DNA of 64,000 bases from a virus (Duplodnaviria > Caudoviricetes): the IMG/VR virus record IMGVR_UViG_3300042988_001200, one strand, 5' to 3'. This document shows, in pieces, positions 23,131 to 47,927 of the stretch. Under the pieces are notes generated by a model. It was given only the letters and a program-made list of their open reading frames with translations. It was not told the origin of the DNA and searched no databases. Both the position numbers and the translations under genes were made by a program. The first letter of the stretch is position 1. The number at the start of each line of letters is the position of its first letter.

Positions 23131-25178
23131 AGGGATAATAAATCTTCTGGATAGAAACAACTAGATAAACTTAGATTAACCCCATATAGTTCATCACATA
23201 AAGGGATTAGTAATATAGAACCTGGCTTATGAATAGTATTAGTTATTTCATTTATTACTATTTTAATATTAAAACTATTAAGCACCCTTATGATTTCTGG
23301 ATTGTTTATTTCTAATATGCAATATAAGAGTTGAGACATTACAGCTATCTCTATTATGAAATTTCTATTATTAGCCTCATGGTTAGAAGTAATTATCTTA
23401 ATGAAATCCACTTTAGATATATTTATAGAATTATTTATATTAGTAAAATCTTCTATATCTATATCTTGGTTATTTATAAACTCATCTATATGCTCATATA
23501 TAGATATAAGGGATAAAAGCCCTTCACAGATAGACTCTAACTCTTTGTATGAGTCTATATAGAGATTCTGTGTAGCTCTAGTTAAAGCTACATATATTAG
23601 ATTTAGCTCCTGAATATGGTCATTATATTTATTAGTTGGTCTAAATAGAATATCTGCTGAAGGAACTATATACCAGACATTCTTTGCTTCTGCTCCTTTA
23701 GCTCTATGGATAGAACTAAGAATAATAGCATTCTTACTTGGTTTACATAATTCCTCTACATATTTCTCTATATAGGAGACATCTATGTTCTCTTTTATGT
23801 ATAAATATATATACTCTATTAAACTATTACAACAATTAAAGTAGTCTATTAAAGTATCTAAACTAATAGTAAATAGTTCTTTAGAACTTGTATTATTCTG
23901 TTTTATACAATCGTGATTATACTTATAGAAACCACTTAATAAGTTCTTATACTCATTTAAAGAGTACGTTTTATAGTCTTGTAACTTGTTATACTCTAAA
24001 GCTAGTCTAAAGAATCTACTAATAGAGATACTTAAATCTGTACATCTTATATATATCTTCTTACCTTTTGATAATAGTTCTAAGCCATATTCTACTAATG
24101 GATAGTTATATCTACTAACAATAAGGTCTTTACTCTTTACTTTATTAACTATAAATTCTTTATTAAAGCCTTTTACTACACTCCCTTGTTTAGGGTTAGC
24201 GGGTAGCATTTCTATCTTAACTAGTTCTTTAACTAGTTCTATATGACTATCTGGACATCTATAACAATATGAAAGGGGGAGTTGAATAGTATTAAAGCTC
24301 TCTTTCATAATCTTCCAAATAGAAGGTTCAGCTCCTGCAAATGCAAATATAGACTGGTTATAGTCTCCTAATAATATGATTTGACTACCATTATTAGTAA
24401 ATTTCTTATATATCTCTAACATTAATAGAGAGGAATCCTGAGCTTCATCTACTATTAGATAGTCTGTGTGAGTTGGTTCTAGGTTTAAATCAATAGAAAG
24501 TTCTAGTAATTGAGTGAAGTCTAGGATTTTATTATTAGCTTGAGTCCTTCTTAATTGACTAATATATCTAATACATTTACATATAAATTTAATATAAGGA
24601 TTTATATATTCTAACTTTAAGCCATATTTATATATAACAAAGTAGATGTTTTCATAGGTTATAGTTAATCTATTTATTCTTAGATAGTTATCTATTTGTT
24701 TAGTTGCTTGTTTAAATATATTAATATGAACATTAATATCCTTTCTTTCTTGTTTAGTTATATTAGAAGAAGGGTCTATTCTTTCCTTTGTATATATATA
24801 ACTATAAAGTTCTTGATTTAAAGATTCATCTTTAAGGAAGGAATTAACGAACTCTGAAGTCCTATCTTGAATATCTATATCACCTAATACCCTTTTTAAT
24901 AACCCATAACATAGACTATGGATAGTATTTATCCTTACATTATTTAATCCTTTAATCCTTGTATCCTCTTTTAACTGTTCAGCTATATGTTTATTAAAAG
25001 CTAGAATCTGTATCTTTTTACCGCCTAAAGCTCCACATAGACCTATGATTTGAGTAGTTTTACCTACTCCTGCATTAGCATTGACTTGAATATTATTGGT
25101 TAAAGCCTCTTGAAATATAGTTAATTGATGACTATTCCAATTAATAGCAGTTAGATAATTAGAAGTCCAATTATTCAT
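23121..25178 (-). CDS. UvrD/Rep-like superfamily 1 helicase with C-terminal extension
   Basis: NAGVGKTT, LAFN, IVDEAQD, GDYNQSIFAF, SIHRAKGAE, YVALTRA. Confidence 0.88.
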   Translation of the reverse strand: MNNWTSNYLTAINWNSHQLTIFQEALTNNIQVNANAGVGKTTQIIGLCGALGGKKIQILAFNKHIAEQLKEDTRIKGLNNVRINTIHSLCYGLLKRVLGDIDIQDRTSEFVNSFLKDESLNQELYSYIYTKERIDPSSNITKQERKDINVHINIFKQATKQIDNYLRINRLTITYENIYFVIYKYGLKLEYINPYIKFICKCIRYISQLRRTQANNKILDFTQLLELSIDLNLEPTHTDYLIVDEAQDSSLLMLEIYKKFTNNGSQIILLGDYNQSIFAFAGAEPSIWKIMKESFNTIQLPLSYCYRCPDSHIELVKELVKIEMLPANPKQGSVVKGFNKEFIVNKVKSKDLIVSRYNYPLVEYGLELLSKGKKIYIRCTDLSISISRFFRLALEYNKLQDYKTYSLNEYKNLLSGFYKYNHDCIKQNNTSSKELFTISLDTLIDYFNCCNSLIEYIYLYIKENIDVSYIEKYVEELCKPSKNAIILSSIHRAKGAEAKNVWYIVPSADILFRPTNKYNDHIQELNLIYVALTRATQNLYIDSYKELESICEGLLSLISIYEHIDEFINNQDIDIEDFTNINNSINISKVDFIKIITSNHEANNRNFIIEIAVMSQLLYCILEINNPEIIRVLNSFNIKIVINEITNTIHKPGSILLIPLCDELYGVNLSLSSCFYPEDLLSLCL

Positions 25179-25850: not shown

Positions 25851-27227
25851 TTAACTCCTATCTAAGAATTCCTCTCTAGAATCTATGTTTATCTCTTTAT
25901 TCTCTATAAGGTTACTAAGACTATTAGCCCATTGTCTATAGGCTATATGCCCTCCAGGTCTACTTCTTAATCTACTAATATATATAAGTTCCTTTAATCC
26001 TATATCAAATACGTAATAAGTTAAATGACCATTAGGTAATATAAACTTAGATTTATCTGTTATATTATCTTTAATAAAATCATATTGAGAGTTAAATATC
26101 TCTGTATATAATTCCTTAACCTCTGGGATTAAATCTAAGTATGGACATAAAGAATACAGTTCATAGTTAGAACGATTTAGTTCATTATATATATTAAAGG
26201 TTTTATGTAATAAAGGTATAAACTTACCTATTGACCTATGTCTATTTATATCAATTAAGGACCCAATATCTAAATAACCAGTATATAGATCCTTACCAAT
26301 TGTTAGTTCATTAGAACCCTCTTCATATTGATTATATAGATTTATATAAGATATACTCCTTTTAACCACCTCATTCTCATTGTTTATACTTACTCTCTCT
26401 CCTATAGGGCTAATTAATTTAGCTATGTTATCTAATAAACCAATATTCTTTACTCTTATATTTCTATATACTGGCTTATTCACTATAACTAAATCTTTGT
26501 ATATATCTTTTATTAGATTATTTAAATAATCTATATTAGAGTAACCAGTTGTATATTTGATACAAGTCTTAGCTTCTGGAGTATAAGAAGGAGAAGTAAG
26601 GATGGATTCTAGAGTATCTCCCCAAAGAGAAGTTCTATTATCAACCCTTAAGTATTTAATATATTTACTCCATTCTCTAGAAGATTGGATAGCTCCTATA
26701 GAAGTTTTAATAGATAAAGGTAATAGGTATCTAGTACAATCCAAAGTTCTAGCTCTAAGGGCAGAAACTTCCTTAGAGTTATTTAAATCTATATTAAAGT
26801 ATTTAGATAATCCCTCAAAGGTAGGCTGATATAGACGGGTATAGGCTTCTAACCATTTATCAATAATAAAGTTGTATTCAGGTATAGATATAGAGGTGAA
26901 TATAGATTGATATCTAGTAGATCTTTCTTGTCCATCTTGTAGAGGATGATTATAAAAGAACTCAGCAGCATCTAATCTAGTTAACCCCTCTAGGAATATA
27001 TATTGATGAGCTAACCCTCTTACAGAGGAATGACCATACTCATTAACTATCCTTTTTATAACCTCTATACTCTTCTCCTTACTCCTTTCTTCTATAAGGT
27101 CTAATATACTCTTACTACTTCTAGAATAAGAGGCTATAAGAGAGGCATACTCCTCCCCCAACCCCTCTTCATTCTGTAATAAAGTACCTATGATTACTTC
27201 ATTACAAATATTATATTTAAACTTCAT
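25851..27227 (-). CDS. thyX: FAD-dependent thymidylate synthase (long two-domain ThyX/Thy1)
   Basis: YGHSSV, QERSTRY, TRYLLP, second module DINRHRS and RLRSRPGGHIAYR. Confidence 0.85.
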   Translation of the reverse strand: MKFKYNICNEVIIGTLLQNEEGLGEEYASLIASYSRSSKSILDLIEERSKEKSIEVIKRIVNEYGHSSVRGLAHQYIFLEGLTRLDAAEFFYNHPLQDGQERSTRYQSIFTSISIPEYNFIIDKWLEAYTRLYQPTFEGLSKYFNIDLNNSKEVSALRARTLDCTRYLLPLSIKTSIGAIQSSREWSKYIKYLRVDNRTSLWGDTLESILTSPSYTPEAKTCIKYTTGYSNIDYLNNLIKDIYKDLVIVNKPVYRNIRVKNIGLLDNIAKLISPIGERVSINNENEVVKRSISYINLYNQYEEGSNELTIGKDLYTGYLDIGSLIDINRHRSIGKFIPLLHKTFNIYNELNRSNYELYSLCPYLDLIPEVKELYTEIFNSQYDFIKDNITDKSKFILPNGHLTYYVFDIGLKELIYISRLRSRPGGHIAYRQWANSLSNLIENKEINIDSREEFLDRS

Positions 27228-30866: not shown

Positions 30867-31595
30867 ATGATTTATATAATTCCTATAGTCTTCTTTCTTA
30901 TATATGTATGTACTTTTTATTTATTAGATAAAAGGGATAAGGAGCCAATATCTCTTGTGTTATCTATTTGTATATATGGAGCTTTTTCTGCTTTATTTGT
31001 ATGTAGATATATACTTCCAGGAGCTAATTTATTTAATATCTCTTTTGTAGAAGAGACTATAAAGTTTATTATTGTTATAATTCTATTTCACTCTCTGTCT
31101 AAATATGTAAATAACTCTTTTGATTTAATTGTTTATTCATGTTATTCCGCTTTAGGTTTTTCTATAGCGGAATCTCTTTATTATTTATATCTAAACCCTA
31201 GTCTCTCATTGGCTTTATCTAGGTCTATATTTAGCGTTCTTCATTGTATATGGACAACTATATGTGCTTATGGTTTCTCTATATCTGTATCTTTATCTAA
31301 TCCTATATTCTCTATAGTAGGCATTACTCTTGCTATATTCCTTCATACTCTACATAACTACTTAGCCCTCTTTTCCTTTAATTATATATATATCTTTTTC
31401 TTTATACTTCAAGTATTTGCTTTATTTATTATATTTAATAATCTAATAAGTAGAGAGATTAAAATTATATCTCTTTATAAATCTAAGGACTTATCTAACT
31501 CACATATATTAGAAATATATGAGTTAGAACAAAAGAATAAATATATAACTTCTAGATTGAAATATCTATATGCCCTTACCAAATCCCTCCACTGA
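30867..31595 (+). CDS. PrsW-family intramembrane metalloprotease
   Basis: DKRDKEP, VEETIK, LGFSIAE, LHCIW, LHTLHN in a multi-TM protein. Confidence 0.85.
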   Translation: MIYIIPIVFFLIYVCTFYLLDKRDKEPISLVLSICIYGAFSALFVCRYILPGANLFNISFVEETIKFIIVIILFHSLSKYVNNSFDLIVYSCYSALGFSIAESLYYLYLNPSLSLALSRSIFSVLHCIWTTICAYGFSISVSLSNPIFSIVGITLAIFLHTLHNYLALFSFNYIYIFFFILQVFALFIIFNNLISREIKIISLYKSKDLSNSHILEIYELEQKNKYITSRLKYLYALTKSLH

Positions 31596-33584: not shown

Positions 33585-36500
33585 ATGACAACTTATTATA
33601 TCTCTCCCACTGGCTCTTCTAATGGTTTATCTATTAATAATCCCTCCTCATACTCGACTATCTATCCCTCTCTAATAGAAGGGGATGAACTTATATTTCT
33701 ACCAGGTAAGTATAGATTAAATCTACTTATAGATAAACAAATAACTAGCAATAATACTTATATAACTTATAGTTCTCTAAGGAATCAGGCTAATACTCAG
33801 TTCCTAGAGACCTATACAGATATATCTCAGAAGGGTGTTATTGTATCTAAACCCTCTACTATCTATGAAGAGGCTATTATTACTGGATGTGAAATTCTTA
33901 ACCAAGTCTGGACTAATGTATCTGGATTCATATGGAAGACTAATATAACTCTTCCATATGCTAAGGGGTCTAATCAAATATTCTATAAGGATGTTCCTCT
34001 AGTAGAAGCTAGATATCCCTCTATCTCTAATCTAGAAGAGGAAATATATCATACATCCTATCTAATATCTATAGCAGGCTCTATTAATGAATCAGATGTT
34101 AATGCTGATGGATATCTATGTACCTACTCTAATACCTCTCTATCTTCATTCCCTGATAACTTCTGGAATGGTCATAGTATAACCCTTCTCCCTGGAAAGG
34201 AGTGGAGGGGTTATATCGGTAAGGTAATAAGTAATATAGGTAGTACCCTAACTTTTAGATTTCAATGGCCCTCTACCTCCCATTCAGCTCAAGCTGCTAA
34301 ACCAGAGGCTGATGATTTATTCTATCTATGGGGCTCTTTAGATACATCTCTACTTACTCCTAATAGTTATATATATGACTCTAATACCCAAGAGTTATAT
34401 ATCTATCTCCCTGATAATAAAGATCCTAATACCTGTGCTATTGGGGAAATAGAGTATAAAGCTAGATTATATGGATTAGAGTATTCAGGGGTTGTTACAG
34501 GTACTAACTCTGCTATTAGATTGGAAGGGCTAAAGTTCTTTAGTTGTGCTCTTCGTACTACTAATGATAGTAGTGGTCTTAATACTAAATACTGTGACTT
34601 TAATTATCTGACTCTAGGTTATGAAGGTACTATAGCTGGATTTGTATTAAGAGGTTCCTCTGGACTTATAGAGAGTTGTAACTGGTATGTAGCTGGTAGT
34701 AATGGATTAGAATTAAGGGGTAATGGGCATAAGGTTATTAATAATACATTCAATAAGATATCTATTAGACCTACCTCTACGCATAGTATTATTTGTTATC
34801 CAGATGTATTAGATGACCAGGGTTATAGTCTATTTGCTAACTCTGTATGGGACTTTAGTGCGTGGGGTATTGAATGTAAATATAAGCGTTCGGTCATTAA
34901 TTATAACAACTCTAATCAAGGAGGGGTTTCCTTTAATAGAGTATGGAATGGAAGTAATTGTCTATCAGATACTTCCTTTATAGGGTCCTGGGATGCAGGA
35001 GACCATAATGGTCTAGTTATCTCCTTTAATATATGCCATGACTCTAAGGATAGAAGGAATATTACTAGTCTATTTAGATTGGATTCAGGAGGGGGTAAAG
35101 GATGTTGGAATGCTGTATTCCACTCTAATATTGCCTATAACTGTAGGAACTTTAATAGTTCTATGTCTATATGGGGCCTTCTACCCTCTCAATATAATGG
35201 AGATTTAAATATAGATGTATATAACAATACAATCTGGGGTGGATTAACTATAGAAAAAGGTTCTGATACTACTAGACAATTCACTGGTATAGATATACAA
35301 AGGAATATACTTGTAGACTTTGTACCTTTAGTTTCAACTACTCACACTCTTTTAGATAATGATATTCTTAAGGCTTCTTATCTTAATAATGTACAAGTAG
35401 ACCCAGATATAGGTCTTACCTATTGTGACTTTAGACCCTCATATACTAGCTCTATCACTAACACTAGTGCTATAGCTGGTAACTTTAGTACCTCATATAA
35501 GGGAGCTGTTGTTCCTACTATTGTATCTAGTAATTTAGAAAGTCTATACCAGGCTTACCCATTTATCAATGTACCCTTTGTATCAACAGGTGCTTATTGT
35601 GTAGAAGCTATTCACTGGAATGATATAGAAGTAGAACAACTAACTCAATATCCTAATGTAGTTAAAATAACAGGATTACCTAAAGGTAGGACCCTTCCTC
35701 CTCTATGTAACTTATATCTAGGTAGTTCTATATATCTAACTAGATATGAAACAGTAGATGATGATGGTTATTTCACTATATGGTACGTTCTACCATTCTC
35801 TAGTACCTCCCAACCTTTATATCTATCTATAGGAGGTTTCTATGAGGGATGGAAGGATACTAAAGGGGCTTTAATAAACCTTAATCTATCTATAATCACT
35901 CAACCATCTATAACCTTTACTTCATATCTAGAGGGCACTCTAACTCTTAATACTAAGTCCCTATCTCTAGGGAATAAAACAATTATTCCTTTAGCTGTAT
36001 CAGCCCTCCAATGGGTAAATATAAACTCTAACCCTGTATATATACAAGTCCCTAAAAGCTCTATAGTAGGTTCTCTACATAACTATTTAGTTAAGGACTA
36101 TCAAGATAGAACTCTTAACTCCTGGATAGATAGAGAAACCTCTACTGATTATTACCTATGGATATCTCTAGTAGACACCTCTATAAGAAGAAATAATTCT
36201 CTTATAGACTATTCTCTATATCTAGAACTTTCTAATACTTATGTACCTCATAATAATGTAAATGAGATATTCCCCTCCTTTGGTCTATCTAGCTTTAAGA
36301 TATGGCTATCCCCTGATTCTATAAATAGAACAGGTAACTCTATTACCTCTTGGACTAATAAAGGACTCGCTGGTGGTACTTTTAACCTATCCACTCCATC
36401 TACTCTTGATTATGTCTCTACTGGATTAAACTCTATACCAGGAGCCTCCTTCTCTGGAGATGATAGATTACTCCCATCTAATATGGGACCTATAGATACA

Positions 36501-38543
36501 GATTTATATGTAGGTATAGTTGTATATAGAAACCCAGACCCAGGGGCTATTAGAAACCAAAGGATACTTTCTAGTGCTCTTACTGGTAATGACTACTCTA
36601 GTGGTATATATGTCATACCAGATAACACCTCTGGAGATGTAATAGCCTATCCCTCTGGTAAGTCTAAATTAGTTACATCTTCCTATGTGGCTAACCCCAC
36701 TAATCTAACTCTAGGGGGTAACTATAGTAATACTAATGCTAACTATAAAGGAGAGTTATATGAGTTAATAATCTGGGATAAACCTATAACTCCCTCTCAA
36801 AGAAACCCTATCTTAGATAACTACATTCAACCTAAATACTTTAATAACAACATAACTCTAGACCCTGAACCTAATCCCTCATTGGGCTCCTTTAACTTCC
36901 CTGTATATATAGATGGAGTTCTATATCCAGGGATTCATATAGTTCAGTCACCTATAACCAACTCTCAATCTACATTTACTCTTACTAACCTACCTCCTCT
37001 ATCAGAGGGGAATCACTCAGTATCTATTAAAGCCCCTTCTGGCTTTATTAATAACTTCTCATCCTCCTACTCCTCCTATGACTTCTCCTTTAACTACTCC
37101 TATCAAATATTTATTATGACTCGTATAACTAACCTTATAGGTACTATTACTGATAGATGGTCTATTAAATCTAAGGTTATTAAAGATAATTCTACTAACC
37201 TCTCCTTTACTGACCTCTCTAACCAACCTACCCCTATTAACTCTAAGGTTACTAATAACCGTATAGTTATTGGTAATAGCAATAATGAAATGGTGGAGGT
37301 AGACCCTAGTACATTATTTATTACACCTAGTTCTACAGTAGATGGAGATATAGAGGGTACTTTATCTACACTTAGTATTAAGACTAATAGTGTTACAGAT
37401 AATAAGCTGGGTAATAGAACATTAGACCAGAATATAGGGACTACAGCTTCTAATACTGGAACCCTTACTTCTTTATTATCCTGGTTAGTAAAGCATGTTA
37501 AGTCCATATTAGGGACTACTAACTGGTATGATGCTCCTCCTACTAATCTAACAACTGTATCCTCTCATTTATCTAATACTAGTAACCCACATGGAGTTAC
37601 TGGGGCTCAATTAGGATTAGGTTCTATTAGTGTACAAAATAGTGATGCTGTAACTATTACAGGAGGTTCTATTACTGGAGTAACTTCATTCTTATCATCT
37701 TCTAATCCATTAGTATCTGGTACTGCTAGTGCAGGTACATCCAGTCTAGCTAGTAGAGAGGACCATGTTCACCCTGTACCCTCTGCTAGTTCTATTAATA
37801 CTTATCTAGGACAGATAGCCGGGTTATCTCCATCTAGTAATAGTATTATCTACTTTAATGGTTCTTCCTGGGTTGTAGATAGTATATTAAGTCATATGAA
37901 TAGGGTTACAGCTACTAATATTATCTTTATAGATGACCATTTCATATGTGGGAGTGTTGCTAGTAATAATGGTTGGACTACTACTAGTAGCGCTGGGAGT
38001 TCTAGTTTAATTAATAGTGAAGCTGGTCGACCAGGGTTAATACAAATATTTAATAATAGTGGGGGTACAGGTAGTGCTTGTTTAGGTACTAACTTCACGA
38101 ATGGTACAGCTAGTGTATTCCTTAATACCACTTCTACTACTCTATCTATCACTAGTAGGATTCAGACCCTATCTGCTACAGGAGAAGAGTTTGAAGTTAG
38201 ACTAGGGTTCTTTGATTCTGGTATAGGTTCTATTAATAATGGTGCTTACTTTATAGCTGACCCTACTAGTAACTTCTGGAGATGTATATATGCTATTGGT
38301 GGCTCTTCTACTACTTATACTACTACTGTAGCTCTAGGTACTATATGGAATAAGTTTACTATTAATATAACTAATGGGGGATTAAACACTGATTGGTTAA
38401 TTAATGATGTAGTAGTAGCTTCTCATACGGTAGGTAGTGGTCTATCTACTGGAGTAGGATTTGGTACTTGTATTAGAAAGACTGTTGGTACTGCTCAAAG
38501 ATATGTATATATTGATAGATATACTCTATATCAACTACCTTAA
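33585..38543 (+). CDS. Giant receptor-binding/tail-fibre protein with N-terminal right-handed beta-helix and LamG-like lectin region
   Basis: TYYISPTG..GLSINNP, Asn/Gly-rich parallel beta-helix repeats, WLSPD..W..K and ELIIWD (LamG-like), fibre motif LLSWLVKHVKSILGTTNWYDAP, HLSNTSNPHGVT. Confidence 0.7.
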   Translation: MTTYYISPTGSSNGLSINNPSSYSTIYPSLIEGDELIFLPGKYRLNLLIDKQITSNNTYITYSSLRNQANTQFLETYTDISQKGVIVSKPSTIYEEAIITGCEILNQVWTNVSGFIWKTNITLPYAKGSNQIFYKDVPLVEARYPSISNLEEEIYHTSYLISIAGSINESDVNADGYLCTYSNTSLSSFPDNFWNGHSITLLPGKEWRGYIGKVISNIGSTLTFRFQWPSTSHSAQAAKPEADDLFYLWGSLDTSLLTPNSYIYDSNTQELYIYLPDNKDPNTCAIGEIEYKARLYGLEYSGVVTGTNSAIRLEGLKFFSCALRTTNDSSGLNTKYCDFNYLTLGYEGTIAGFVLRGSSGLIESCNWYVAGSNGLELRGNGHKVINNTFNKISIRPTSTHSIICYPDVLDDQGYSLFANSVWDFSAWGIECKYKRSVINYNNSNQGGVSFNRVWNGSNCLSDTSFIGSWDAGDHNGLVISFNICHDSKDRRNITSLFRLDSGGGKGCWNAVFHSNIAYNCRNFNSSMSIWGLLPSQYNGDLNIDVYNNTIWGGLTIEKGSDTTRQFTGIDIQRNILVDFVPLVSTTHTLLDNDILKASYLNNVQVDPDIGLTYCDFRPSYTSSITNTSAIAGNFSTSYKGAVVPTIVSSNLESLYQAYPFINVPFVSTGAYCVEAIHWNDIEVEQLTQYPNVVKITGLPKGRTLPPLCNLYLGSSIYLTRYETVDDDGYFTIWYVLPFSSTSQPLYLSIGGFYEGWKDTKGALINLNLSIITQPSITFTSYLEGTLTLNTKSLSLGNKTIIPLAVSALQWVNINSNPVYIQVPKSSIVGSLHNYLVKDYQDRTLNSWIDRETSTDYYLWISLVDTSIRRNNSLIDYSLYLELSNTYVPHNNVNEIFPSFGLSSFKIWLSPDSINRTGNSITSWTNKGLAGGTFNLSTPSTLDYVSTGLNSIPGASFSGDDRLLPSNMGPIDTDLYVGIVVYRNPDPGAIRNQRILSSALTGNDYSSGIYVIPDNTSGDVIAYPSGKSKLVTSSYVANPTNLTLGGNYSNTNANYKGELYELIIWDKPITPSQRNPILDNYIQPKYFNNNITLDPEPNPSLGSFNFPVYIDGVLYPGIHIVQSPITNSQSTFTLTNLPPLSEGNHSVSIKAPSGFINNFSSSYSSYDFSFNYSYQIFIMTRITNLIGTITDRWSIKSKVIKDNSTNLSFTDLSNQPTPINSKVTNNRIVIGNSNNEMVEVDPSTLFITPSSTVDGDIEGTLSTLSIKTNSVTDNKLGNRTLDQNIGTTASNTGTLTSLLSWLVKHVKSILGTTNWYDAPPTNLTTVSSHLSNTSNPHGVTGAQLGLGSISVQNSDAVTITGGSITGVTSFLSSSNPLVSGTASAGTSSLASREDHVHPVPSASSINTYLGQIAGLSPSSNSIIYFNGSSWVVDSILSHMNRVTATNIIFIDDHFICGSVASNNGWTTTSSAGSSSLINSEAGRPGLIQIFNNSGGTGSACLGTNFTNGTASVFLNTTSTTLSITSRIQTLSATGEEFEVRLGFFDSGIGSINNGAYFIADPTSNFWRCIYAIGGSSTTYTTTVALGTIWNKFTINITNGGLNTDWLINDVVVASHTVGSGLSTGVGFGTCIRKTVGTAQRYVYIDRYTLYQLP

Positions 38544-38593: not shown

Positions 38594-39022
38594 TTACATA
38601 GGGGGGAAGTATTCTTTATCTGCTTTAAATGCTACTTGTTTATTATCTAATGAGCAAAATTCATCATTACAACCTTCATTTTCATTTACCCAATTAGATA
38701 TAAAAGTTACTTCTTCTGGAGAATTAATGTTAATTTCTTTACCTAAATACCACCACTTTCCCTCCACCTTAATAATAGTAATGGTCTTTTTATCTAAGGA
38801 TTCTTCATTAAATTCATAGCTATTTACTAGTTTAGAGTTCTTTAATATACTATCTAACCTATCTTTATATTTAGGTTCTAGAGAAAGTATTACTTCTTTA
38901 CTTGTATGAAAAAGTTCATCTTTATTAATAAACTGTAAATTCTCTAATAGAATTATTAAAGAATATAAAGAGGAAATACCTCTTCTAGTCTTAATCTTTA
39001 CTTGCATATGTCTATTCCTCAA
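38594..39022 (-). CDS. Hypothetical protein, last gene of Ubl operon
   Basis: 142 aa; CNDEFC. Confidence 0.55.
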   Translation of the reverse strand: MRNRHMQVKIKTRRGISSLYSLIILLENLQFINKDELFHTSKEVILSLEPKYKDRLDSILKNSKLVNSYEFNEESLDKKTITIIKVEGKWWYLGKEININSPEEVTFISNWVNENEGCNDEFCSLDNKQVAFKADKEYFPPM

Positions 39023-39317
39023 TAGGGTTTACTTCAGATAAAGGAGTGGTTAACTCTTTATATACTTTATCAACTTTAGGGTTCTTATTATATTTAAAAC
39101 CTTTAAGAGCTTTAGTTAAATTAATTATTTCCTCTTCTTGAAAACTCTTAATATTAACTGTCTTACCTCCAAATGTATATTTACCTAACTTCCTATCCCA
39201 AGCATCCTCTAGAGCTTTATCTACTTTAGAGGATTCATTATTTAATTCCTTAACAGAGAACCTTTGTAAAGCCTTATTTTCTGCACTATTACTCTTAGAT
39301 TTATTAGTCTTAGACAT
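39012..39317 (-). CDS. Hypothetical protein downstream of E1
   Basis: 101 aa; AGGAGA RBS. Confidence 0.6.
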   Translation of the reverse strand: MSKTNKSKSNSAENKALQRFSVKELNNESSKVDKALEDAWDRKLGKYTFGGKTVNIKSFQEEEIINLTKALKGFKYNKNPKVDKVYKELTTPLSEVNPIEE

Positions 39318-39328
39318 CTATTTCTCCT

Positions 39329-40024
39329 TTATTTAATATCTAAATGAACTTTATCTAAACTATTAACTACTCCTTTATTAATATCAAAAGACATTAGTTC
39401 ATAGAAGTAACCATTAATAATATTATACAGAGTATTAAGCGTGAGGGAAGCTGCCATTAAATTAGCACAGATAATCTGAGTATTAGTCTCCTTTTGTAAT
39501 GAACATCCCCTATCTCCAGGAATCCTATCTGTAGGTTTATTAAGACTAGGATATAACTCTAGGGGATTGGTTCCTATGGATTTACCATTTATATAAGCCC
39601 AGGTTATTACTTGTCCATAATCTAACTCATTACCAGGAGTAATGAATATAACATCTCTATTAGACTCAGATATAGCTTCTATAACAGCTTTTCTACTAGC
39701 CTGATTATCTACACAAGCTATACAAAGGGTTAAAACACCAGAGTCTCTATTACTTAGAATATTAGAGTATACCTTTTTATTAACATAAGTTATATGTGAA
39801 TAACAAGATATATCTAAATCTAATATCTCTTTTTGTAATGGATTAACTTTATTAAATGAAATGCTAGAAGGAAAGAAACCCTGTCTTTCTATATTATTCT
39901 CCTCTACTTTATCTGCATCATATAAATGAACTTCTATATAGTTCATGTACTTTTTTAATAGTTTAGCCATTGGTATAGCTAAATAAGAGCCGGTTCCACC
40001 ACATCCAATAAGGTCTACAAACAT
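39329..40024 (-). CDS. ThiF/E1-like ubiquitin-activating enzyme
   Basis: LIGCGGTGS, YDADKVEENNIERQ, CVDNQASR, GNE, putative catalytic GCS...Q..AN. Confidence 0.9.
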   Translation of the reverse strand: MFVDLIGCGGTGSYLAIPMAKLLKKYMNYIEVHLYDADKVEENNIERQGFFPSSISFNKVNPLQKEILDLDISCYSHITYVNKKVYSNILSNRDSGVLTLCIACVDNQASRKAVIEAISESNRDVIFITPGNELDYGQVITWAYINGKSIGTNPLELYPSLNKPTDRIPGDRGCSLQKETNTQIICANLMAASLTLNTLYNIINGYFYELMSFDINKGVVNSLDKVHLDIK

Positions 40025-40051
40025 GTTTACTCTCTTAATATGAAAGGAAGA

Positions 40052-40089
40052 TAGAGTTTAGTATCTATAAAGGTAAATACTAAACTCTA
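40052..40089. terminator. 13-bp hairpin between Ubl and E1 genes
   Basis: TAGAGTTTAGTAT-12nt-ATACTAAACTCTA. Confidence 0.6.
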
Positions 40090-40095
40090 GGTTCA

Positions 40096-40503
40096 TTAGG
40101 CTTTAACAGCTACTTTTGTATATAAAGTATAGGTAGCTCCCACTTTAACGGGTTGAGACTTGTCCTTTACAATGACTCCATCCTCCTTTATATTGACAAT
40201 ATTATCCTCAAAGTAAAGAGATTCTGATGCTTTCTCAATTAAATCCTCAATGGTAAGACCCTCTACTTCTTCTATATCATATTGGATTTGTTCTCCTAAT
40301 GAAAAGGTGACAGTAGTTACAGTAGTCTTAGAGGTAGATTCTTCCATTCTAGAGGAAGAAATATTATCAACCATTACCTCCATTTCTTCATTAGAAATAG
40401 GTTTATCTAATGAGATAACTTCTGGATTAGTGTCTTTTAAAGAAGAATCTAGTTTATTTAGTAGAGAAACGGTCTTTTGAATAATAGTTTTAACGATGCT
40501 CAT
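40096..40503 (-). CDS. Ubiquitin-like (beta-grasp) protein with N-terminal extension (start revised to ATG 40503)
   Basis: C-terminal 70 aa VTFSLG...LTIEDLI...V.VGATYTLYTKVAVKA; sits between JAB and E1. Confidence 0.7.
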   Translation of the reverse strand: MSIVKTIIQKTVSLLNKLDSSLKDTNPEVISLDKPISNEEMEVMVDNISSSRMEESTSKTTVTTVTFSLGEQIQYDIEEVEGLTIEDLIEKASESLYFEDNIVNIKEDGVIVKDKSQPVKVGATYTLYTKVAVKA

Positions 40504-40504
40504 A

Positions 40505-41335
40505 TCAATACTCCACAAATTTATACTGGTTATCTAACAACAAATCTTCTATGTCAAATAAGGCTATACTTCCATATTTATTCTCCATTAACTTAAGAAA
40601 AGTGTCTAAATCCTTCTTTAACTCTGGATTAATAGTCCTAGATTGAGTCTTAAAGATGAAGGTATTAATAGGTTTACTAGGCTTATTTCCTTTAATAAAA
40701 GTAGTTGTTAAAGGATTAACTAGCTGTTTATATAGAGGAGAAATGCTTATATTAGGAATATAAGTCTCTTCTATTGGTAATAAAAGTAATGGATTAGATA
40801 CAATAAACCTTCTATTGAACTTAGTAATAGAAGGTAGAACTGAATAATTATTGTCCTTTATAGAGTGGATAAGTATATGAAACCCGGGGGATTTAAGCTC
40901 TGAATCATCATCTATAGAAGAAAAATCTCCTTTAATACCAGTAGGATGTAGATGACTATCTCCTACCATTATATAATTATCACTGGTGTAATCCTCTAAT
41001 AAAGCCTCGGATTCTATATCAAATGCTTTAAAACTTAGTCTAGTAGTAGAAGAAAGAGTGACTTGCTGCTCTGGAATTACAATTCTCCACTTATCTAACT
41101 CTTGATTATATAGAATAACTGAGCTTATTTCTAGACTTAAGGAGTTATATTCCTTAAAAATAGATACCATTCTATGCCATAAATCTAGAGGAATCTTATT
41201 AATAGGAGGTACTAATGTAAAGAGTTCTACTACTTGGTCATCTAAACCATCAGGGTCTTCTATCTTTCTATAACAAGTTCCCCAATATGAACTATCTAAT
41301 TTATAACTACCTAGAGTCTTAGTCTTTATATACAT
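40505..41335 (-). CDS. JAB/MPN metalloprotease (deubiquitinase-like)
   Basis: LEISSVIL (Glu) ... VPEQ-like IPEQQV ... SHLHP-x6-FSSIDD..E..GFHI. Confidence 0.85.
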   Translation of the reverse strand: MYIKTKTLGSYKLDSSYWGTCYRKIEDPDGLDDQVVELFTLVPPINKIPLDLWHRMVSIFKEYNSLSLEISSVILYNQELDKWRIVIPEQQVTLSSTTRLSFKAFDIESEALLEDYTSDNYIMVGDSHLHPTGIKGDFSSIDDDSELKSPGFHILIHSIKDNNYSVLPSITKFNRRFIVSNPLLLLPIEETYIPNISISPLYKQLVNPLTTTFIKGNKPSKPINTFIFKTQSRTINPELKKDLDTFLKLMENKYGSIALFDIEDLLLDNQYKFVEY

Positions 41336-42100
41336 CTATTCCTCTTCATCTTTATACTCATCTTCTGAATCATAGTCATCCTCTTCAGTATTTGTATAAT
41401 CCTCTAACTTCTCCCATTCTATTGTTAAGGATTCATCAGACTTATATGCTTCATATTTAGTAAATATTTTCTCTAGAATAGCTTCTAAAGAGTCAATATC
41501 ATTAAAGCCATCTAAATTAAATAGACTATCCCAGTAGATATCGTATAACTCTTTATGAGTGTATTCATCTATATCTATATTATCACCAAAGCATATCTGA
41601 TTATCTGCCATTCTATTGGGTAATGGAAGAAAGTAATATTCGCCTCTTATACAAGTAGTTATATAGAACTTACTTTCTCCAGATTCTTTATCATCTAAAT
41701 ACCAGAACTCATGTATAGGTAATCTAAATTCTATAGTTGTAATAATATCTTCTGGTTCTAGTTTTCTACATTTACCCTCTAATACAAATGAAATATCTCT
41801 CTCATAGGATTCCTCTAGAGAACATATATAACTCTCTTTTTTTAATAGAGAGAACCTTGTATTTAAATCCTTTATATAGGGTTCTAATTTATTGATTAAA
41901 ATCTCATCAATCTCATTAATTCTACAATAATTTCTAATTATCTTTAAATTTAAATCATTTATACTCTCTTTAAAGTTAAACCAATTATTGAACTTACAGT
42001 ATTTACATTCTTTGTTTTTAATATCTCCAGTATCTCTATTAATTATTTTAATAGTTTTTACTTGCTCTCTATAAATTTCTATTAACTCAGGATTTGACAT
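41336..42100 (-). CDS. Prokaryotic E2-like conjugating enzyme (family D-like; start revised to ATG 42100)
   Basis: YFLPLPNRMADNQICFG...YWDSLFN; acidic C-terminal tail. Confidence 0.75.
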   Translation of the reverse strand: MSNPELIEIYREQVKTIKIINRDTGDIKNKECKYCKFNNWFNFKESINDLNLKIIRNYCRINEIDEILINKLEPYIKDLNTRFSLLKKESYICSLEESYERDISFVLEGKCRKLEPEDIITTIEFRLPIHEFWYLDDKESGESKFYITTCIRGEYYFLPLPNRMADNQICFGDNIDIDEYTHKELYDIYWDSLFNLDGFNDIDSLEAILEKIFTKYEAYKSDESLTIEWEKLEDYTNTEEDDYDSEDEYKDEEE

Positions 42101-42118
42101 CTTTATACCCCTTAAAAC

Positions 42119-42146
42119 AGTAGGAGTTAGGGGTCTAACTCCTACT
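42119..42146 (-). terminator. 12-bp hairpin downstream of hli
   Basis: AGTAGGAGTTAG-4nt-CTAACTCCTACT then GTTTT on minus strand. Confidence 0.65.
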
Positions 42147-42155
42147 TTATACAAT

Positions 42156-42308
42156 TTAATGAACAATTATTAGCTTAATAAGATTACCAAATGGACCAGA
42201 TAGAGTTACTAATTCTAAGAATAGTAGACTAATAAACCCTATCATTGCTAATCTTCCATTCACTAATTCAGCAGTATTATCAAATATAAATCTAGGTTTA
42301 ATCTTCAT
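42156..42308 (-). CDS. hli: High-light-inducible protein (HliP); not in ORF track
   Basis: MKIKPRFIFDNTAELVNGRLAMIGFISLLFLELVTLSGPFGNLIKLIIVH contains the chlorophyll-binding ExxNGRxAMxG motif. Confidence 0.92.
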   Translation of the reverse strand: MKIKPRFIFDNTAELVNGRLAMIGFISLLFLELVTLSGPFGNLIKLIIVH

Positions 42309-42443: not shown

Positions 42444-42872
42444 CTAAACTCCTAGTTTACAGATAATAGAGGAAGGAATCTGGTAATTAATAAGAGTCTT
42501 TACAGTATTCCAATTACCCCCTCCTAGACCACAACCTATTTTATAAGGGATATAAACTTTAAGATTTAACTCTTGGGCTATTTCATTAACTAACCCTAAT
42601 CCTTTAGATAGAGCTTTATAGTCTGTATGTATCCCTGTATTACCATAGGTATTTTGCCCAATTAGAGATACTATTACTAGGCTCTCTATTCTAGTAGTAA
42701 TAATATCTCCCATTTCTAGATTACCTACTTGTGATTTATAATCTATTTCTACTTGAGGATATTTAGTTTTAATGGATAAAGCTAGACCTTTACCCATTAC
42801 TCCTTGTTTATTAACCTGATGGACGATGATTCCTTCTTTAATGTCTAAGATATTCTTCTCTATGATTTCCAT
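42444..42872 (-). CDS. Macrodomain protein (ADP-ribose processing)
   Basis: NIL...IVHQVN..GVMGKGLA..IK.KYP...PYKIGCGLGGGNW. Confidence 0.88.
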   Translation of the reverse strand: MEIIEKNILDIKEGIIVHQVNKQGVMGKGLALSIKTKYPQVEIDYKSQVGNLEMGDIITTRIESLVIVSLIGQNTYGNTGIHTDYKALSKGLGLVNEIAQELNLKVYIPYKIGCGLGGGNWNTVKTLINYQIPSSIICKLGV

Positions 42873-43204
42873 TAAAGACCTTTTATTAATTGGATATAAC
42901 CTTTATTTAATTGAATATAGTTGTTTAGAATTGTATTTAGTAACTCTATAAGTTGCTCTTTAGAGGCTCTATCTATACAACTTTCAAAGGTTTCTTTTAT
43001 ATCTTTATCTTCAGTATTCTCATAGAATTTACCTATACTCTTAACAAAGTATATTATCTTTAGCTTCCTATTCTCTCTATAATAGTTCTCTAAAGTCTCA
43101 ATTACTAATTGTTTTAAATCCTCTCTATTAAGATTTCTGGCCTTTAAATTATATGAAGCAATCTTAAACTGCTCTTCTAAAGTGAGATTTAAGGTAGATT
43201 CCAT
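42872..43204 (-). CDS. nblA: NblA-like phycobilisome degradation adaptor, tandem two-unit fusion
   Basis: Unit 1 LTLEEQFKIASY...LNREDLKQLVI; unit 2 F...IDRASKEQLIELL..I..YIQLIKG. Confidence 0.7.
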   Translation of the reverse strand: MESTLNLTLEEQFKIASYNLKARNLNREDLKQLVIETLENYYRENRKLKIIYFVKSIGKFYENTEDKDIKETFESCIDRASKEQLIELLNTILNNYIQLNKGYIQLIKGL

Positions 43205-47354: not shown

Positions 47355-47927
47355 TTATGGGTTTTTACATGTTGAAATAAAGAACTTGGGAGATACTTCT
47401 CTTGTTAACCATACGGTTTTAGGCTTTGTCTCCCAAAATAATAACCCCTCCTCTTGCATTAATTTACTGTTAATACTAACTATATAACTAGGTAAATTAA
47501 CTTTTCTACCATTTCTATCTCCTATTTGTCTGGCTGATTCTCTCTTAGTAGAAAGGTGAACTAGATATCTGGATATAGGTAATATACCTTTTTCTTTTAT
47601 ATCTTTAACTCTATCTTCGGTTAATCCGTGATATAAAATAGGGGGTGGAGTTTTAGGTTTATCTAATATTGGATAAGGAAAACTATGACCATAACAAGCT
47701 CTAATAATAGTGTTATTCCTTTCAAATCTCTTATTATTCTTAATGAAACTGGTTATATCCTCACTAGTTATATCTTCTAAACCTATAATCTCATTAATTA
47801 ATTTAGTAACTTCTTGTACATTAAACCACCCTCCCTCATTAGTTTTATTACCACAGTGTCTTAATATATAACATAAAGATTTAGATAACTTAGTTAATTT
47901 AGTTTTAGTAGCATCTTTAATTGTCAT
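47355..47927 (-). CDS. kptA: RNA 2'-phosphotransferase (Tpt1/KptA)
   Basis: SKSLCYILRH, KRFE, IRACYGHS, LYHG, R.LVHLS, VWLT..V.P. Confidence 0.9.
   Translation of the reverse strand: MTIKDATKTKLTKLSKSLCYILRHCGNKTNEGGWFNVQEVTKLINEIIGLEDITSEDITSFIKNNKRFERNNTIIRACYGHSFPYPILDKPKTPPPILYHGLTEDRVKDIKEKGILPISRYLVHLSTKRESARQIGDRNGRKVNLPSYIVSINSKLMQEEGLLFWETKPKTVWLTREVSPKFFISTCKNP

What the first reader, a model, noticed from the sequence alone, without database searches (positions are those of the whole stretch)
39012..42100. Complete phage-encoded ubiquitin-like conjugation operon (E2-JAB-Ubl-E1)
Seen: four adjacent co-oriented genes with intact catalytic motifs: E2-like (PN..DNQICFG), JAB (E...HxH-x8-SxxD), a beta-grasp Ubl and a ThiF E1 (GxGGTG, GCS). 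Known: bacteria use E1/E2/Ubl/JAB modules against phage; the Bil system conjugates a Ubl to the phage central tail fibre, and similar gene sets occur in PRTRC-type mobile elements. Inference: this cyanophage owns the whole machine. It may pre-modify or de-modify its own fibres (the operon converges on the two fibre genes), or tag host proteins (it follows the nblA-macro-hli block).
Basis: partly seen in the sequence, partly recalled or inferred. Interest (0 to 1): 0.88.

Follow-up and report, generated by a model that had tools for sequence, protein, structure and literature searches.

The report
Phage-encoded ubiquitin-like conjugation cassette
A large uncultured freshwater phage, probably infecting a cyanobacterium, carries four adjacent genes for a ubiquitin-like tag, its activating (E1) and conjugating (E2) enzymes and a trimming protease; it is a stripped-down relative of the uncharacterised 'PRTRC' cassettes common in phages and plasmids, and its tag unusually ends in alanine rather than glycine.

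Summary
Four co-oriented minus-strand genes encode:
- an E2-like protein (41336-42100)
- a JAMM/JAB peptidase (40505-41335)
- a beta-grasp Ubl (40096-40503)
- a ThiF-type E1 (39329-40024)

Catalytic motifs are intact in all four and invariant across relatives. The Ubl domain folds as a beta-grasp. A complex model puts its C-terminal tail in the E1 nucleotide site (score 0.64, best control 0.00). The E2 call rests on several weak but concordant signals.

The cassette is not Bil-like. Its nearest known kin are PRTRC / Iyer "6d" / Prok-E2_D cassettes. It fails every PRTRC cut-off and lacks the PRTRC accessory proteins.

E1 relatives occur on 194 IMG/VR viral contigs. Of 88 loci examined, 71 carry E1, E2 and JAB together. 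Ralstonia phage Dina is already annotated with a full PRTRC set, so phage carriage itself is not new.

The window belongs to a small, well-supported subclade (support 99/97). In that subclade the Ubl ends in Lys-Gly with 0-2 trailing residues. The window's Ubl alone ends in Lys-Ala, and an independent metagenome reproduces this.

Function and target are unknown. Fibre adjacency recurs in only two lineages. No paper characterising such phage cassettes was found. Other windows of this scan noted the same stretch.

Verdict: a real cassette and a new variant of a known kind, of moderate to high interest.

The parts
41336..42100 (-). E2-like (UBC-fold, Prok-E2_D / PRTRC_B-like) protein, 254 aa from the ATG at 42100. 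An upstream TTG at 42166 is also open. Residue numbers here follow the 255-aa translation of 41336-42103. Predicted catalytic Cys171 lies 8 residues after Asn163 of an L-P-N motif. Four conserved N-terminal Cys (33, 36, 94, 112) suggest a Zn-binding insert.
   Evidence: Invariant P129, N163, C171, G173, F195, N196 in 8 relatives. hhalign of window+L001 against the L002-L004 E2s gives E 1.8e-4. An HMM built only from 65 non-clade viral E2s hits it at E 7.9e-5 on the PN..C.G..FN.D motif. Two L002 relatives pass the Pfam Prok-E2_D cut-off. 72 of the 100 nearest ESM-Atlas clusters are Prok-E2_D. The AF2 core is a 4-strand meander, Cys loop and helices. About 25 UBC E2 chains align at Z 3.6-4.9 over 104-112 residues. 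AFDB and Atlas fold hits are to PRTRC protein B, UBC core and Prok-E2_D. The protein itself has no Pfam or NCBIfam hit.
40505..41335 (-). JAMM/JAB metallopeptidase, 276 aa, with an N-terminal extension and a C-terminal half of unknown fold. It starts directly after the E2 stop.
   Evidence: Invariant E69, H128, H130, S139, D142 in 6 relatives. The non-clade JAB HMM hits it at E 1.2e-12. The L002 relative passes the Pfam Prok-JAB cut-off. Hits to PRTRC_A are weak. A profile search of PDB sequences found nothing.
40096..40503 (-). Ubiquitin-like protein, 135 aa. About 60 low-confidence N-terminal residues precede a beta-grasp domain (63-130). The C-terminus is ...T-K-V-A-V-K-A.
   Evidence: The AF2 domain has pLDDT 75-90 and beta-beta-alpha-beta-beta order. 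Foldseek top hits are MoaD, SAMP1, SUMO, NEDD8 and Urm1 at probability 0.94-1.00, best E 1.7e-3. Relatives end in K-G plus 0-2 residues. The Lys-Ala end is reproduced without a difference in a contig from an independent study.
39329..40024 (-). ThiF-type E1 adenylating enzyme, 231 aa, a single adenylation domain, with predicted catalytic Cys174.
   Evidence: Pfam ThiF 35.0 bits, above the 28.1 cut-off. PRTRC_ThiF 68.1 bits, below the 144.75 cut-off. Invariant G7/G9/G10, D36, R47, K59, D106, R111, C174 in 10 relatives. The complex model with the Ubl scores 0.64 against a best control of 0.00.
40052..40089 (-). 16-pair AT-rich hairpin in the 71-nt gap between the Ubl stop and the E1 start, followed by a pyrimidine-rich tail. 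It may be an attenuator or an RNA-processing or stability element.
   Evidence: Terminator-like scan hit, but the region's count of such sites equals the shuffle expectation. Sequence read.
39012..39317 (-). 101-aa Lys-rich protein of unknown function, 11 nt downstream of E1. It is conserved in L001 (105 aa). Whether it belongs to the module is not shown.
   Evidence: ORFs. No hits in Pfam, NCBIfam, PADLOC or PHROGs.
38594..39022 (-). 137-142-aa protein of unknown function ending ...EYFPPM, the last gene of the co-oriented block. It is conserved in L001 (134 aa). An inverted repeat follows it before the convergent 1652-aa gene.
   Evidence: ORFs. No significant family hits. The inverted repeat is visible.
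42156..42308 (-). hli (high-light-inducible, chlorophyll a/b-binding-like) gene, 50 aa, immediately upstream. In L001 it also precedes the cassette.
   Evidence: Pfam Chloroa_b-bind 23.1 bits, above the 22.3 cut-off. Synteny in L001.

Best explanation
This is a working four-component ubiquitin-like protein conjugation module of the PRTRC / Prok-E2_D ('6d') lineage. It is carried by a roughly 204-kb low-GC freshwater phage with cyanophage marker genes.

Proposed mechanism:
1. The single-domain ThiF-type E1 binds the beta-grasp Ubl and adenylates its free C-terminus. The model shows binding; adenylation is inferred.
2. The Ubl is taken as a thioester on E1 Cys174, then passed to E2 Cys171 (inferred).
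3. The E2, perhaps through its Cys4 N-terminal insert, transfers the Ubl to lysines of target proteins (inferred).
4. The JAB peptidase removes conjugates. In relatives whose Ubl carries 1-2 residues after Lys-Gly, it also matures the precursor (inferred).

Here the Ubl ends exactly at the conjugation position, with Ala in place of Gly, so it needs no maturation.

The cassette follows nblA-macro-hli in the same orientation. In distant relatives it sits among replication and nucleotide-metabolism genes, and PRTRC cassettes travel with plasmids and ICEs. My best guess is therefore that it acts inside the infected cell during take-over or establishment, tagging host or non-structural phage proteins, rather than building the virion. 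That last step is a low-confidence inference. The confidence given (0.7) is for the core conjugation mechanism; the intracellular role alone I put at roughly 0.35-0.4.
For: - E1: passes the Pfam ThiF cut-off. It keeps all adenylation residues and a conserved loop Cys.
- Ubl: beta-grasp model, with MoaD, SAMP1, SUMO, NEDD8 and Urm1 as top fold matches.
- E1-Ubl complex: score 0.64 against a best control of 0.00. That mark was reached by 58 of 80 solved complexes and 2 of 110 mismatched pairs (roughly, since my own alignments were used). Runs agree on at least 97% of contacts and partner pLDDT is at least 84. Ubl tail residues 130-135 touch E1 residues 7, 9-12, 103-108 and 129-133, that is the GxGG loop and Asp106.
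- E2: concordant profile, language-model and fold signals for Prok-E2_D / PRTRC_B / UBC. The Asn-to-Cys spacing of 8 equals, from memory, that of UbcH5 HPN...C85.
- JAB: complete JAMM motif, E 1.2e-12 to an independent viral JAB profile.
- Linkage: all four genes are retained although the order is shuffled. The window has E2-JAB-Ubl-E1, L001 has JAB-Ubl-E2-E1 and L002b has Ubl-JAB-E1-E2-E2.
- Distribution: 71 of 88 loci have E1, E2 and JAB within 5 kb.
- Context: nblA, macro and hli lie upstream on the same strand. In L003 and L004 the cassette sits between helicase/DNA-polymerase genes and UDG/RNR genes.
Against: - No biochemistry exists for this cassette or, as far as the searched library shows, for any PRTRC system.
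- The E2 has no Pfam or NCBIfam hit of its own. Its model is mediocre (mean pLDDT 60.5), and the fold matches are below conventional significance (Foldseek E above 0.8; VIA Z below 5).
- The Ubl ends in Ala where every relative has Gly. This could impair activation.
- A pass in the complex test can reflect memory of solved MoeB-MoaD-type complexes.
- No RNA data were found.
- The target is unknown, and the intracellular-role guess rests on gene position only.
Confidence: 0.7

Rival explanations
1. Virion role. The module tags or untags the phage's own fibre or tail proteins during assembly. This would be analogous to lambda tail-assembly protein I (Ubl) with the JAB domain of K, or a mirror image of Bil.
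For: The cassette converges on a 1652-aa gene with a weak tail-fibre match. The same convergence on a giant repetitive protein is seen in L001 and in the distant L002 locus. The phage Ubl+JAB association in tail assembly is described in PMC1779556.
Against: The fibre gene is on the opposite strand and is separated by an inverted repeat. L003, L004/5 and L008 have no fibre gene nearby. The cassette is co-oriented with host-takeover-type genes instead. Lambda-type tail Ubls use no E1 or E2.
Confidence: 0.15
2. Phage-borne defence or competition system. Like bacterial Bil, the module tags proteins of a co-infecting phage (superinfection exclusion).
For: Bacterial Ubl/E1/E2/DUB operons are anti-phage systems (PMC10557695, 10.1101/2023.09.04.556158). 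The sister cassettes are on large phage contigs, and the kind of cassette is mobile.
Against: No match to Bil or any other Ubl-defence model in PADLOC, only weak Cap2-type E1-E2 hits. No other recognisable defence genes flank it. It lies inside a block of auxiliary and early-type genes.
Confidence: 0.15
3. The 254-aa protein is not a functional E2. The real unit would be E1 + Ubl + JAB, working E2-independently as in archaeal SAMP/UbaA or Urm1, or as a sulfur carrier.
For: The window E2 has no direct family hit. Its fold matches are weak. E2-independent Ubl conjugation exists (PMC9574740 and PMC4895103, both listed).
Against: A Cys in a PN-x7-C-x-G context is invariant across eight relatives. 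Independent profiles, ESM features and fold searches all point to Prok-E2_D / PRTRC_B / UBC. The gene always travels with E1 and JAB. There is no rhodanese or sulfur-transfer gene nearby.
Confidence: 0.1
4. Inactivated or decoy module. The Gly-to-Ala change at the Ubl C-terminus blocks conjugation, so the cassette is decaying, or the Ubl acts only as a non-covalent binder or inhibitor.
For: All seven other Ubls of the subclade, and many weaker candidates in the wider family, end in K-G plus 0-2 residues. Only the window has K-A.
Against: Every catalytic residue of E1, E2 and JAB is intact. The allele is identical in contigs from other studies, which argues it is stable. The complex model still threads the Ala-ended tail into the E1 active site. 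From memory, ubiquitin G76A is still activated and conjugated, more slowly.
Confidence: 0.07

Closest known systems
PRTRC system (NCBIfam TIGR03734-TIGR03742), equivalent to operon type '6d' of Iyer, Burroughs and Aravind 2006 (PMC1779556) and to Pfam Prok-E2_D / Prok-JAB
   Same: It has the same four core activities: ThiF-type single-domain E1, an E2 without the HPN histidine, a JAB with an N-terminal extension, and a small beta-grasp Ubl with a C-terminal Gly position. The best family hits of E1, and the weak hits of JAB and of relatives' E2s, are to PRTRC models. It is likewise carried by mobile elements, including phages such as Ralstonia phage Dina.
   Different: All scores are far below the PRTRC cut-offs. 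There are no PRTRC C, D, E or F hits, no alpha-helical partner and no ParB-like gene in the window. Gene order differs: Ubl-JAB-E2-E1 or E2-JAB-Ubl-E1, against C-F-B-A-ThiF. The E1 forms a separate supported subclade. The E2 has a Cys4 N-terminal insert. The Ubl has a 60-aa N-terminal extension and ends in Ala.
BilABCD (Bil) anti-phage ubiquitination-like systems, types I and II
   Same: A four-gene Ubl + E2 + JAB-type DUB + E1 logic. The Ubl has a conserved C-terminal Gly followed by a few removable residues in relatives.
   Different: Bil E1 has inactive plus active adenylation domains and a CYS domain. Here the E1 is a 231-aa single domain. No sequence or profile similarity to Bil components was detected. 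Bil is bacterial and defensive; this cassette is encoded by the phage itself.
Type II CBASS Cap2/Cap3
   Same: The E1 domain gives weak PADLOC 'E1-E2' and NCBIfam Cap2-type hits. Both pair with a JAB partner.
   Different: Cap2 is an E2-E1 fusion that conjugates a CD-NTase rather than a Ubl. No CD-NTase or effector is present here, and the E2 and E1 are separate genes.
MoeB-MoaD / ThiF-ThiS sulfur-carrier pairs
   Same: The E1 adenylation fold and the way the beta-grasp tail enters the nucleotide site.
   Different: E2 and JAB genes are present. There is no rhodanese domain or cofactor-biosynthesis context. The terminus is Lys-Ala/Gly rather than Gly-Gly.

Membership tests
PRTRC system (NCBIfam) | ThiF-family protein scoring above the TIGR03736 cut-off (144.75 bits) | tested here: not met
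   68.1 bits, E 7.1e-19. It is the best NCBIfam hit but lies below the cut-off.
PRTRC system (NCBIfam) | PRTRC proteins A (JAB) and B (E2-like) above their cut-offs | tested here: not met
   The window JAB scores 12.6 bits against PRTRC_A (cut-off 101.8). The window E2 has no hit. Relatives score 12.9-20.4 bits.
PRTRC system (NCBIfam) | Accessory proteins C, D, E, F and a ParB-related protein in the cassette | tested here: not met
   Six proteins were scanned: the four cassette proteins and the two genes downstream of E1. None hit PRTRC C, D, E or F. No DGxHR ParB motif occurs in any real ORF of the 64-kb window, which is a crude test. The rest of the 204-kb genome was not available.
Pfam Prok-E2_D (PF14460) | Score above the gathering threshold (25 bits) | tested here: inconclusive
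   The window E2 has no hit at E up to 0.1. Two L002 homologues reach 27.0 and 27.8 bits. The window links to them by hhalign (E 1.8e-4) and by a non-clade HMM (E 7.9e-5). 72 of the 100 nearest ESM clusters carry PF14460.
UBC/E2 fold | Four-strand beta-meander, then an Asn-containing loop and catalytic Cys, then C-terminal helices | tested here: inconclusive
   The AF2 secondary-structure order fits, with core pLDDT about 75-80. E2 chains align at Z 3.6-4.9, rmsd 4.0-5.0, over 101-112 residues. Foldseek against PDB was not significant. AFDB hits are PRTRC protein B (probability 0.95) and UBC core (probability 0.90).
JAMM/JAB metallopeptidase (Pfam Prok-JAB) | E ... HxH-x(7-9)-S-xx-D metal-binding motif | tested here: met
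   E69, H128, H130, S139 and D142 are invariant in 6 sequences. The window protein itself has no Pfam hit. The L002 relative scores 26.9 bits, above the cut-off of 25.
Ubiquitin-like beta-grasp modifier | Beta-grasp fold with a flexible C-terminal tail ending in Gly | tested here: inconclusive
   The fold criterion is met. The terminal Gly is replaced by Ala in the window, while relatives have K-G plus 0-2 residues.
ThiF/E1 adenylating enzymes (PF00899) | GxGxxG nucleotide loop, Arg finger, Mg-binding Asp, and a score above the cut-off | tested here: met
   35.0 bits, above the 28.1 cut-off. G7/G9/G10, R47, K59 and D106 are invariant.
BilABCD | Two-domain (IAD+AAD) E1 with a CYS domain, and Bil-type E2 and DUB recognisable by profile | tested here: not met
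   The E1 is 231 aa with a single domain. No Bil model matched in PADLOC. The Bil architecture is taken from PMC10557695.
Any Ubl conjugation system | ATP-dependent Ubl adenylation, E1 and E2 thioesters, isopeptide conjugates | not testable with these tools
   This needs biochemistry. Only an in-silico E1-Ubl docking test was possible.

The most novel reading that the evidence does not exclude
The Ala-ended Ubl is a deliberate variant. It would give conjugates that JAB/DUB enzymes, host or phage, cannot easily remove. The phage would use this tag together with its own ClpC-like unfoldase (20872-23160) and NblA adaptor as a virus-encoded tag-and-degrade pathway against host proteins such as phycobilisome or defence components. 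That would be a bacterial-virus analogue of ubiquitin-directed proteolysis.
Probability: 0.06. Interest if true: 0.9.

Novelty: new variant of a known kind. Interest (0 to 1): 0.62.

Why it matters
Ubiquitin-like conjugation in bacteria has so far been studied as host defence (CBASS Cap2, Bil). The PRTRC/6d class was predicted in 2006 and still has no known function.

This work shows that complete E1-E2-JAB(-Ubl) cassettes are common on viral contigs. It also shows that a compact four-gene version sits in a large phage beside host-takeover genes. That reframes the question from how bacteria ubiquitinate phages to what phages ubiquitinate.

The compact cassette is an attractive reconstitution target: four proteins of modest size and no accessory genes. 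Relatives ending in Gly, set against this one ending in Ala, provide a natural experiment on C-terminal specificity and reversibility.

Tried and rejected
- Near and distant DNA search of GenBank phages found no match.
- Pattern scans of IMG/VR with the single E1 and E2 proteins found nothing. The E1 alignment was needed to find relatives.
- An exhaustive HMMER search of 1.84 billion representatives with the E2 found only itself, the L001 homologue and three long proteins. Those three match short stretches in and around the Cys-motif region many times over and were not followed up.
- PDB sequence searches with the JAB and E2 profiles were empty or irrelevant.
- VIA-align wide search of the whole E2 model was swamped by its low-confidence helical hairpin and was uninformative.
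- PHROGs and PADLOC gave nothing useful for E2, JAB, Ubl or the two downstream genes.
- I suspected a ParB-like gene in L002 (302 aa, DGQHR motif), but Pfam did not confirm it. It is dropped as evidence.
- I looked for a conserved 'downstream histidine' in the E2, as described for type 6d. My regex analysis was inconclusive, so no claim is made.
- Membership in Bil or CBASS was considered and rejected.
- No paper characterising phage-encoded cassettes of this kind, or the PRTRC mechanism, was found.

Full report
**1. What is there**

The minus strand carries a tight block of genes:
- hli, 42308-42156
- an ORF of 254 aa from the ATG at 42100 (276 aa from an upstream TTG), ending at 41336
- a 276-aa ORF, 41335-40505, starting directly after the previous stop
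- a 135-aa ORF from the ATG at 40503 to 40096
- a 71-nt gap holding a 16-pair hairpin at 40089-40052
- a 231-aa ORF, 40024-39329
- two small ORFs of 101 aa and about 140 aa, running down to 38594

The block converges on a 1652-aa plus-strand gene, 33585-38543. Upstream on the same strand lie a macrodomain gene and nblA; together with hli, all three pass Pfam cut-offs. The region has about 30% GC, like the rest of the window.

**2. E1**

The 231-aa protein passes the Pfam ThiF cut-off (35.0 against 28.1 bits). Its best NCBIfam match is PRTRC_ThiF (68.1 bits, E 7e-19), which is well below that model's cut-off of 144.75.

In an alignment of ten homologues the following residues are invariant: the GxGG loop, D36, R47, K59, D106, R111 and a loop cysteine, C174. 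This is the E1 adenylation signature plus a candidate thioester cysteine.

**3. Ubl**

With a six-sequence alignment, AlphaFold2 gives a disordered N-terminal 60 residues. Residues 63-130 form a confident domain (pLDDT 75-90) with beta-beta-alpha-beta-beta order.

The Foldseek matches are dominated by ubiquitin-like beta-grasp proteins: MoaD, SAMP1, SUMO, NEDD8, Urm1 and an archaeal ubiquitin-like protein. Probabilities are 0.94-1.00, the best E-value is 1.7e-3, and TM by target reaches 0.76.

**4. E1-Ubl binding test**

The complex test gave a median score of 0.64 against a best control of 0.00. That mark was reached by 58 of 80 solved complexes and by 2 of 110 mismatched pairs. These counts hold only roughly because my own alignments were used. 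The three runs agree on at least 97% of contacts, and partner pLDDT is at least 84.

The interface places Ubl residues 130-135 against E1 residues 7, 9-12, 103-108 and 129-133. These are the nucleotide loop and the Mg-binding Asp region. This is the geometry expected for C-terminal adenylation. It may partly reflect the model's memory of MoeB-MoaD-type complexes.

**5. JAB**

The 276-aa protein has no family hit of its own. Six homologues share invariant E69, H128, H130, S139 and D142, which is the JAMM motif. One homologue passes the Pfam Prok-JAB cut-off. A profile built only from 57 JAB proteins of other viral loci hits the window protein at E 1.2e-12.

**6. E2**

This is the weakest component, so several independent tests were made.
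- Eight homologues share invariant P129, N163, C171, G173, F195 and N196 (numbering of the 255-aa translation).
- The window and L001 pair matches the other six by hhalign at E 1.8e-4, over the motif region.
- Two L002 homologues pass the Pfam Prok-E2_D cut-off.
- A profile built only from 65 E2 proteins outside the window's subclade hits the window protein at E 7.9e-5. It aligns PlPN..iCwG..FfeSpFn.D with LPLPN..ICFG..WDSLFNLD. That set includes the protein annotated PRTRC protein B in phage Dina.
- By protein-language-model features, 72 of the 100 nearest ESM-Atlas clusters carry Prok-E2_D. Scores are 0.93-0.94 with 191-197 shared features, and most of these clusters are viral.
- The AF2 model is mediocre overall (mean pLDDT 60.5). 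Its core, at pLDDT about 75-80, is a four-strand meander, then the Asn/Cys loop, then helices.
- Foldseek against PDB is not significant. A second look with VIA-align puts about 25 UBC E2 chains at Z 3.6-4.9 over 104-112 residues, rmsd 4.0-5.0. No other non-helical fold competes.
- AFDB clusters return PRTRC system protein B (probability 0.95) and a UBC-core protein (probability 0.90). The top ESM-Atlas structural row is a Prok-E2_D cluster.

From memory, the 8-residue spacing between Asn163 and Cys171 equals that between N77 and C85 of UbcH5.

No single line is conclusive, but together they make a UBC-like, Prok-E2_D-type E2 likely; I put it at about 0.85.

Four further cysteines (33, 36, 94, 112) are conserved in the window, in L001 and in the three L002 E2s. 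They suggest a zinc-binding insert ahead of the core. This was not tested.

**7. Relatives and distribution**

The E1 has a 60%-identical homologue on a 20-kb contig, L001. That locus is syntenic from Tpt1, helicase, macro and hli through to the giant convergent gene. However, its cassette order is JAB-Ubl-E2-E1 rather than E2-JAB-Ubl-E1.

More distant loci carry these arrangements:
- L002 has two cassettes, Ubl-JAB-E2-E1 and Ubl-JAB-E1-E2-E2. The second also converges on a 1033-aa repetitive protein.
- L003 and L008 have Ubl-JAB-E2-E1.
- L004 and L005 have Ubl-JAB-E2-E2-E1.

Retention of all four genes through such reshuffling argues for a functional unit.

A scan of IMG/VR with the E1 alignment found 194 viral contigs encoding a relative. 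Of 88 loci examined, 71 have E1, E2 and JAB within 5 kb. Most are in the canonical PRTRC order.

Ralstonia phage Dina is annotated with PRTRC proteins E, C, F, B, A and ThiF.

In a maximum-likelihood E1 tree, the seven 'Ubl-KG' rows form one group with support 99/97. Its sister group includes contigs of 134-572 kb with E2-E2-JAB-E1. Phage Dina's PRTRC lies elsewhere in the tree.

**8. The C-terminus**

The Ubls of the subclade end as follows: KG (L001, L008), KGV and KGNI (L002), KGR (L003) and KGL (L004). Weaker candidates in the wider family end in (S/T)KG with 0-1 further residues. The window's Ubl ends in KA.

This is not an assembly slip. A 1956-nt contig from a different study (a freshwater sediment metagenome) covers 39920-41875 with no difference.

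Trailing residues in relatives fit maturation by the JAB, as shown for BilC and BilA in PMC10557695. The window's Ubl would need no maturation.

From memory, ubiquitin G76A is still activated and conjugated but is poorly removed by deubiquitinases. An Ala end could therefore make conjugation less reversible. This is inference only.

**9. What it is not**

It is not a Bil system. Bil E1s have two adenylation domains plus a CYS domain, and no Bil model matched.

It is not CBASS Cap2/Cap3. There is no E2-E1 fusion and no CD-NTase.

It is not a formal PRTRC member. All scores are below cut-off. There are no C, D, E or F proteins and no ParB motif in the window.

It is best described as a minimal, divergent phage branch of the PRTRC / '6d' / Prok-E2_D kind that Iyer and colleagues predicted in 2006.

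**10. Biological role**

Nothing here identifies the target.

For a virion role: convergence on a fibre-like gene in the window, L001 and L002. The fibre identity rests on one 30%-identity match to an annotated distal tail fibre. There is no Pfam hit, and the only PHROGs hit is weak and to a family of unknown function.

Against a virion role: the fibre gene is on the opposite strand, and three other lineages have no fibre neighbour.

For an intracellular take-over or establishment role: co-orientation with nblA, macro and hli, and placement among replication and nucleotide-metabolism genes in L003 and L004. [quoted passage not shown]

I favour the intracellular role, at roughly 0.35-0.4 against 0.15 each for the virion and defence roles.

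**11. Origin of the phage**

No whole genome is held for this window. Cluster records show the proteins on a 204,120-bp contig. The DNA is found in freshwater, freshwater-sediment and subsurface metagenomes from three studies. No RNA run holds it.

Other genes in the window are typical of a large phage with many auxiliary genes: class II RNR, ThyX, a sigma-70 factor, a UvrD helicase, PrsW, Tpt1 and a ClpC-like AAA+ unfoldase.

**12. Verdict**

The Bil-flavoured interpretation is only partly supported. The cassette is a new variant of a known but functionally uncharacterised kind.

Three things make it interesting: it is compact and complete, its Ubl has a natural Gly-to-Ala terminus, and the underlying kind turns out to be common in viral sequence data. 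Interest is limited because phage carriage of PRTRC-type cassettes is already visible in public annotation, and because no function can yet be assigned.

Noticed in passing
window 20872-23160 (-): A 762-aa ClpC/ClpB-like double AAA+ unfoldase. Pfam hits are AAA_2 (183 bits), Clp_N and ClpB_D2-small; PHROGs gives phrog_4871 'ATP-dependent protease' at 595 bits. It sits in the same phage as an nblA gene (42872-43204). From memory, NblA is a ClpC adaptor for phycobilisome degradation. The phage may therefore bring both adaptor and unfoldase.
   Followed up: partly
L002 1310-3603 and 6786-10313: One 14-kb contig carries two complete Ubl-JAB-E2-E1-type cassettes about 3 kb apart. The second has tandem E2 paralogues (258 and 263 aa). 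A CAAD-domain gene lies between the cassettes, and a 1033-aa repetitive protein converges on the second. L004 and L005 also have two E2 paralogues.
   Followed up: partly
window 40052-40089 (-): A 16-pair AT-rich hairpin sits exactly between the Ubl stop and the E1 start. The E2, JAB and Ubl genes abut or overlap one another. The hairpin could set the Ubl:E1 ratio by attenuation or transcript processing. The scan's count of terminator-like sites in the region is no higher than in shuffles.
   Followed up: partly
window 42444-42872 (-) and 47355-47927 (-): A macrodomain protein (Pfam Macro, 30 bits) and a Tpt1/KptA RNA 2'-phosphotransferase (79 bits) lie in the same strand block. The pairing is conserved in L001. 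It could be an ADP-ribose-related pair.
   Followed up: no
window 39012-39317 and 38594-39022 (-); L001 8705-9659: Two small proteins of unknown function follow E1 in both the window and L001; L001 has an additional 65-aa gene. By eye, the small proteins after E1 in L001 (65 aa), L003 (81 aa) and L004 (112 and 74 aa) look alike. They may be accessory factors or substrates.
   Followed up: no
window 30867-31595 (+), 14221-15210 (-), 2561-4888 (-), 25851-27227 (-): A PrsW-family intramembrane protease, a sigma-70-type factor, a class II (B12) ribonucleotide reductase and a ThyX-domain protein. These are typical jumbo-phage auxiliary genes.
   Followed up: no
L009, L010, L013, L037 (IMG/VR contigs of 134-572 kb): The sister clade of the window's E1 lies partly on very large viral contigs. 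Its arrangement is E2-E2-JAB-E1. In L009, L013 and L037 a small ORF after E1 ends in Gly plus 0-1 residues (TKGA in L013, QKG in L037, LGR in L009); L010 has none. In these cassettes the Ubl seems to follow the E1.
   Followed up: partly
window 39000-42200: The same DNA, without differences where covered, occurs in freshwater, freshwater-sediment and subsurface metagenomes from three studies. The phage is therefore environmentally widespread, and it is freshwater rather than marine.
   Followed up: partly
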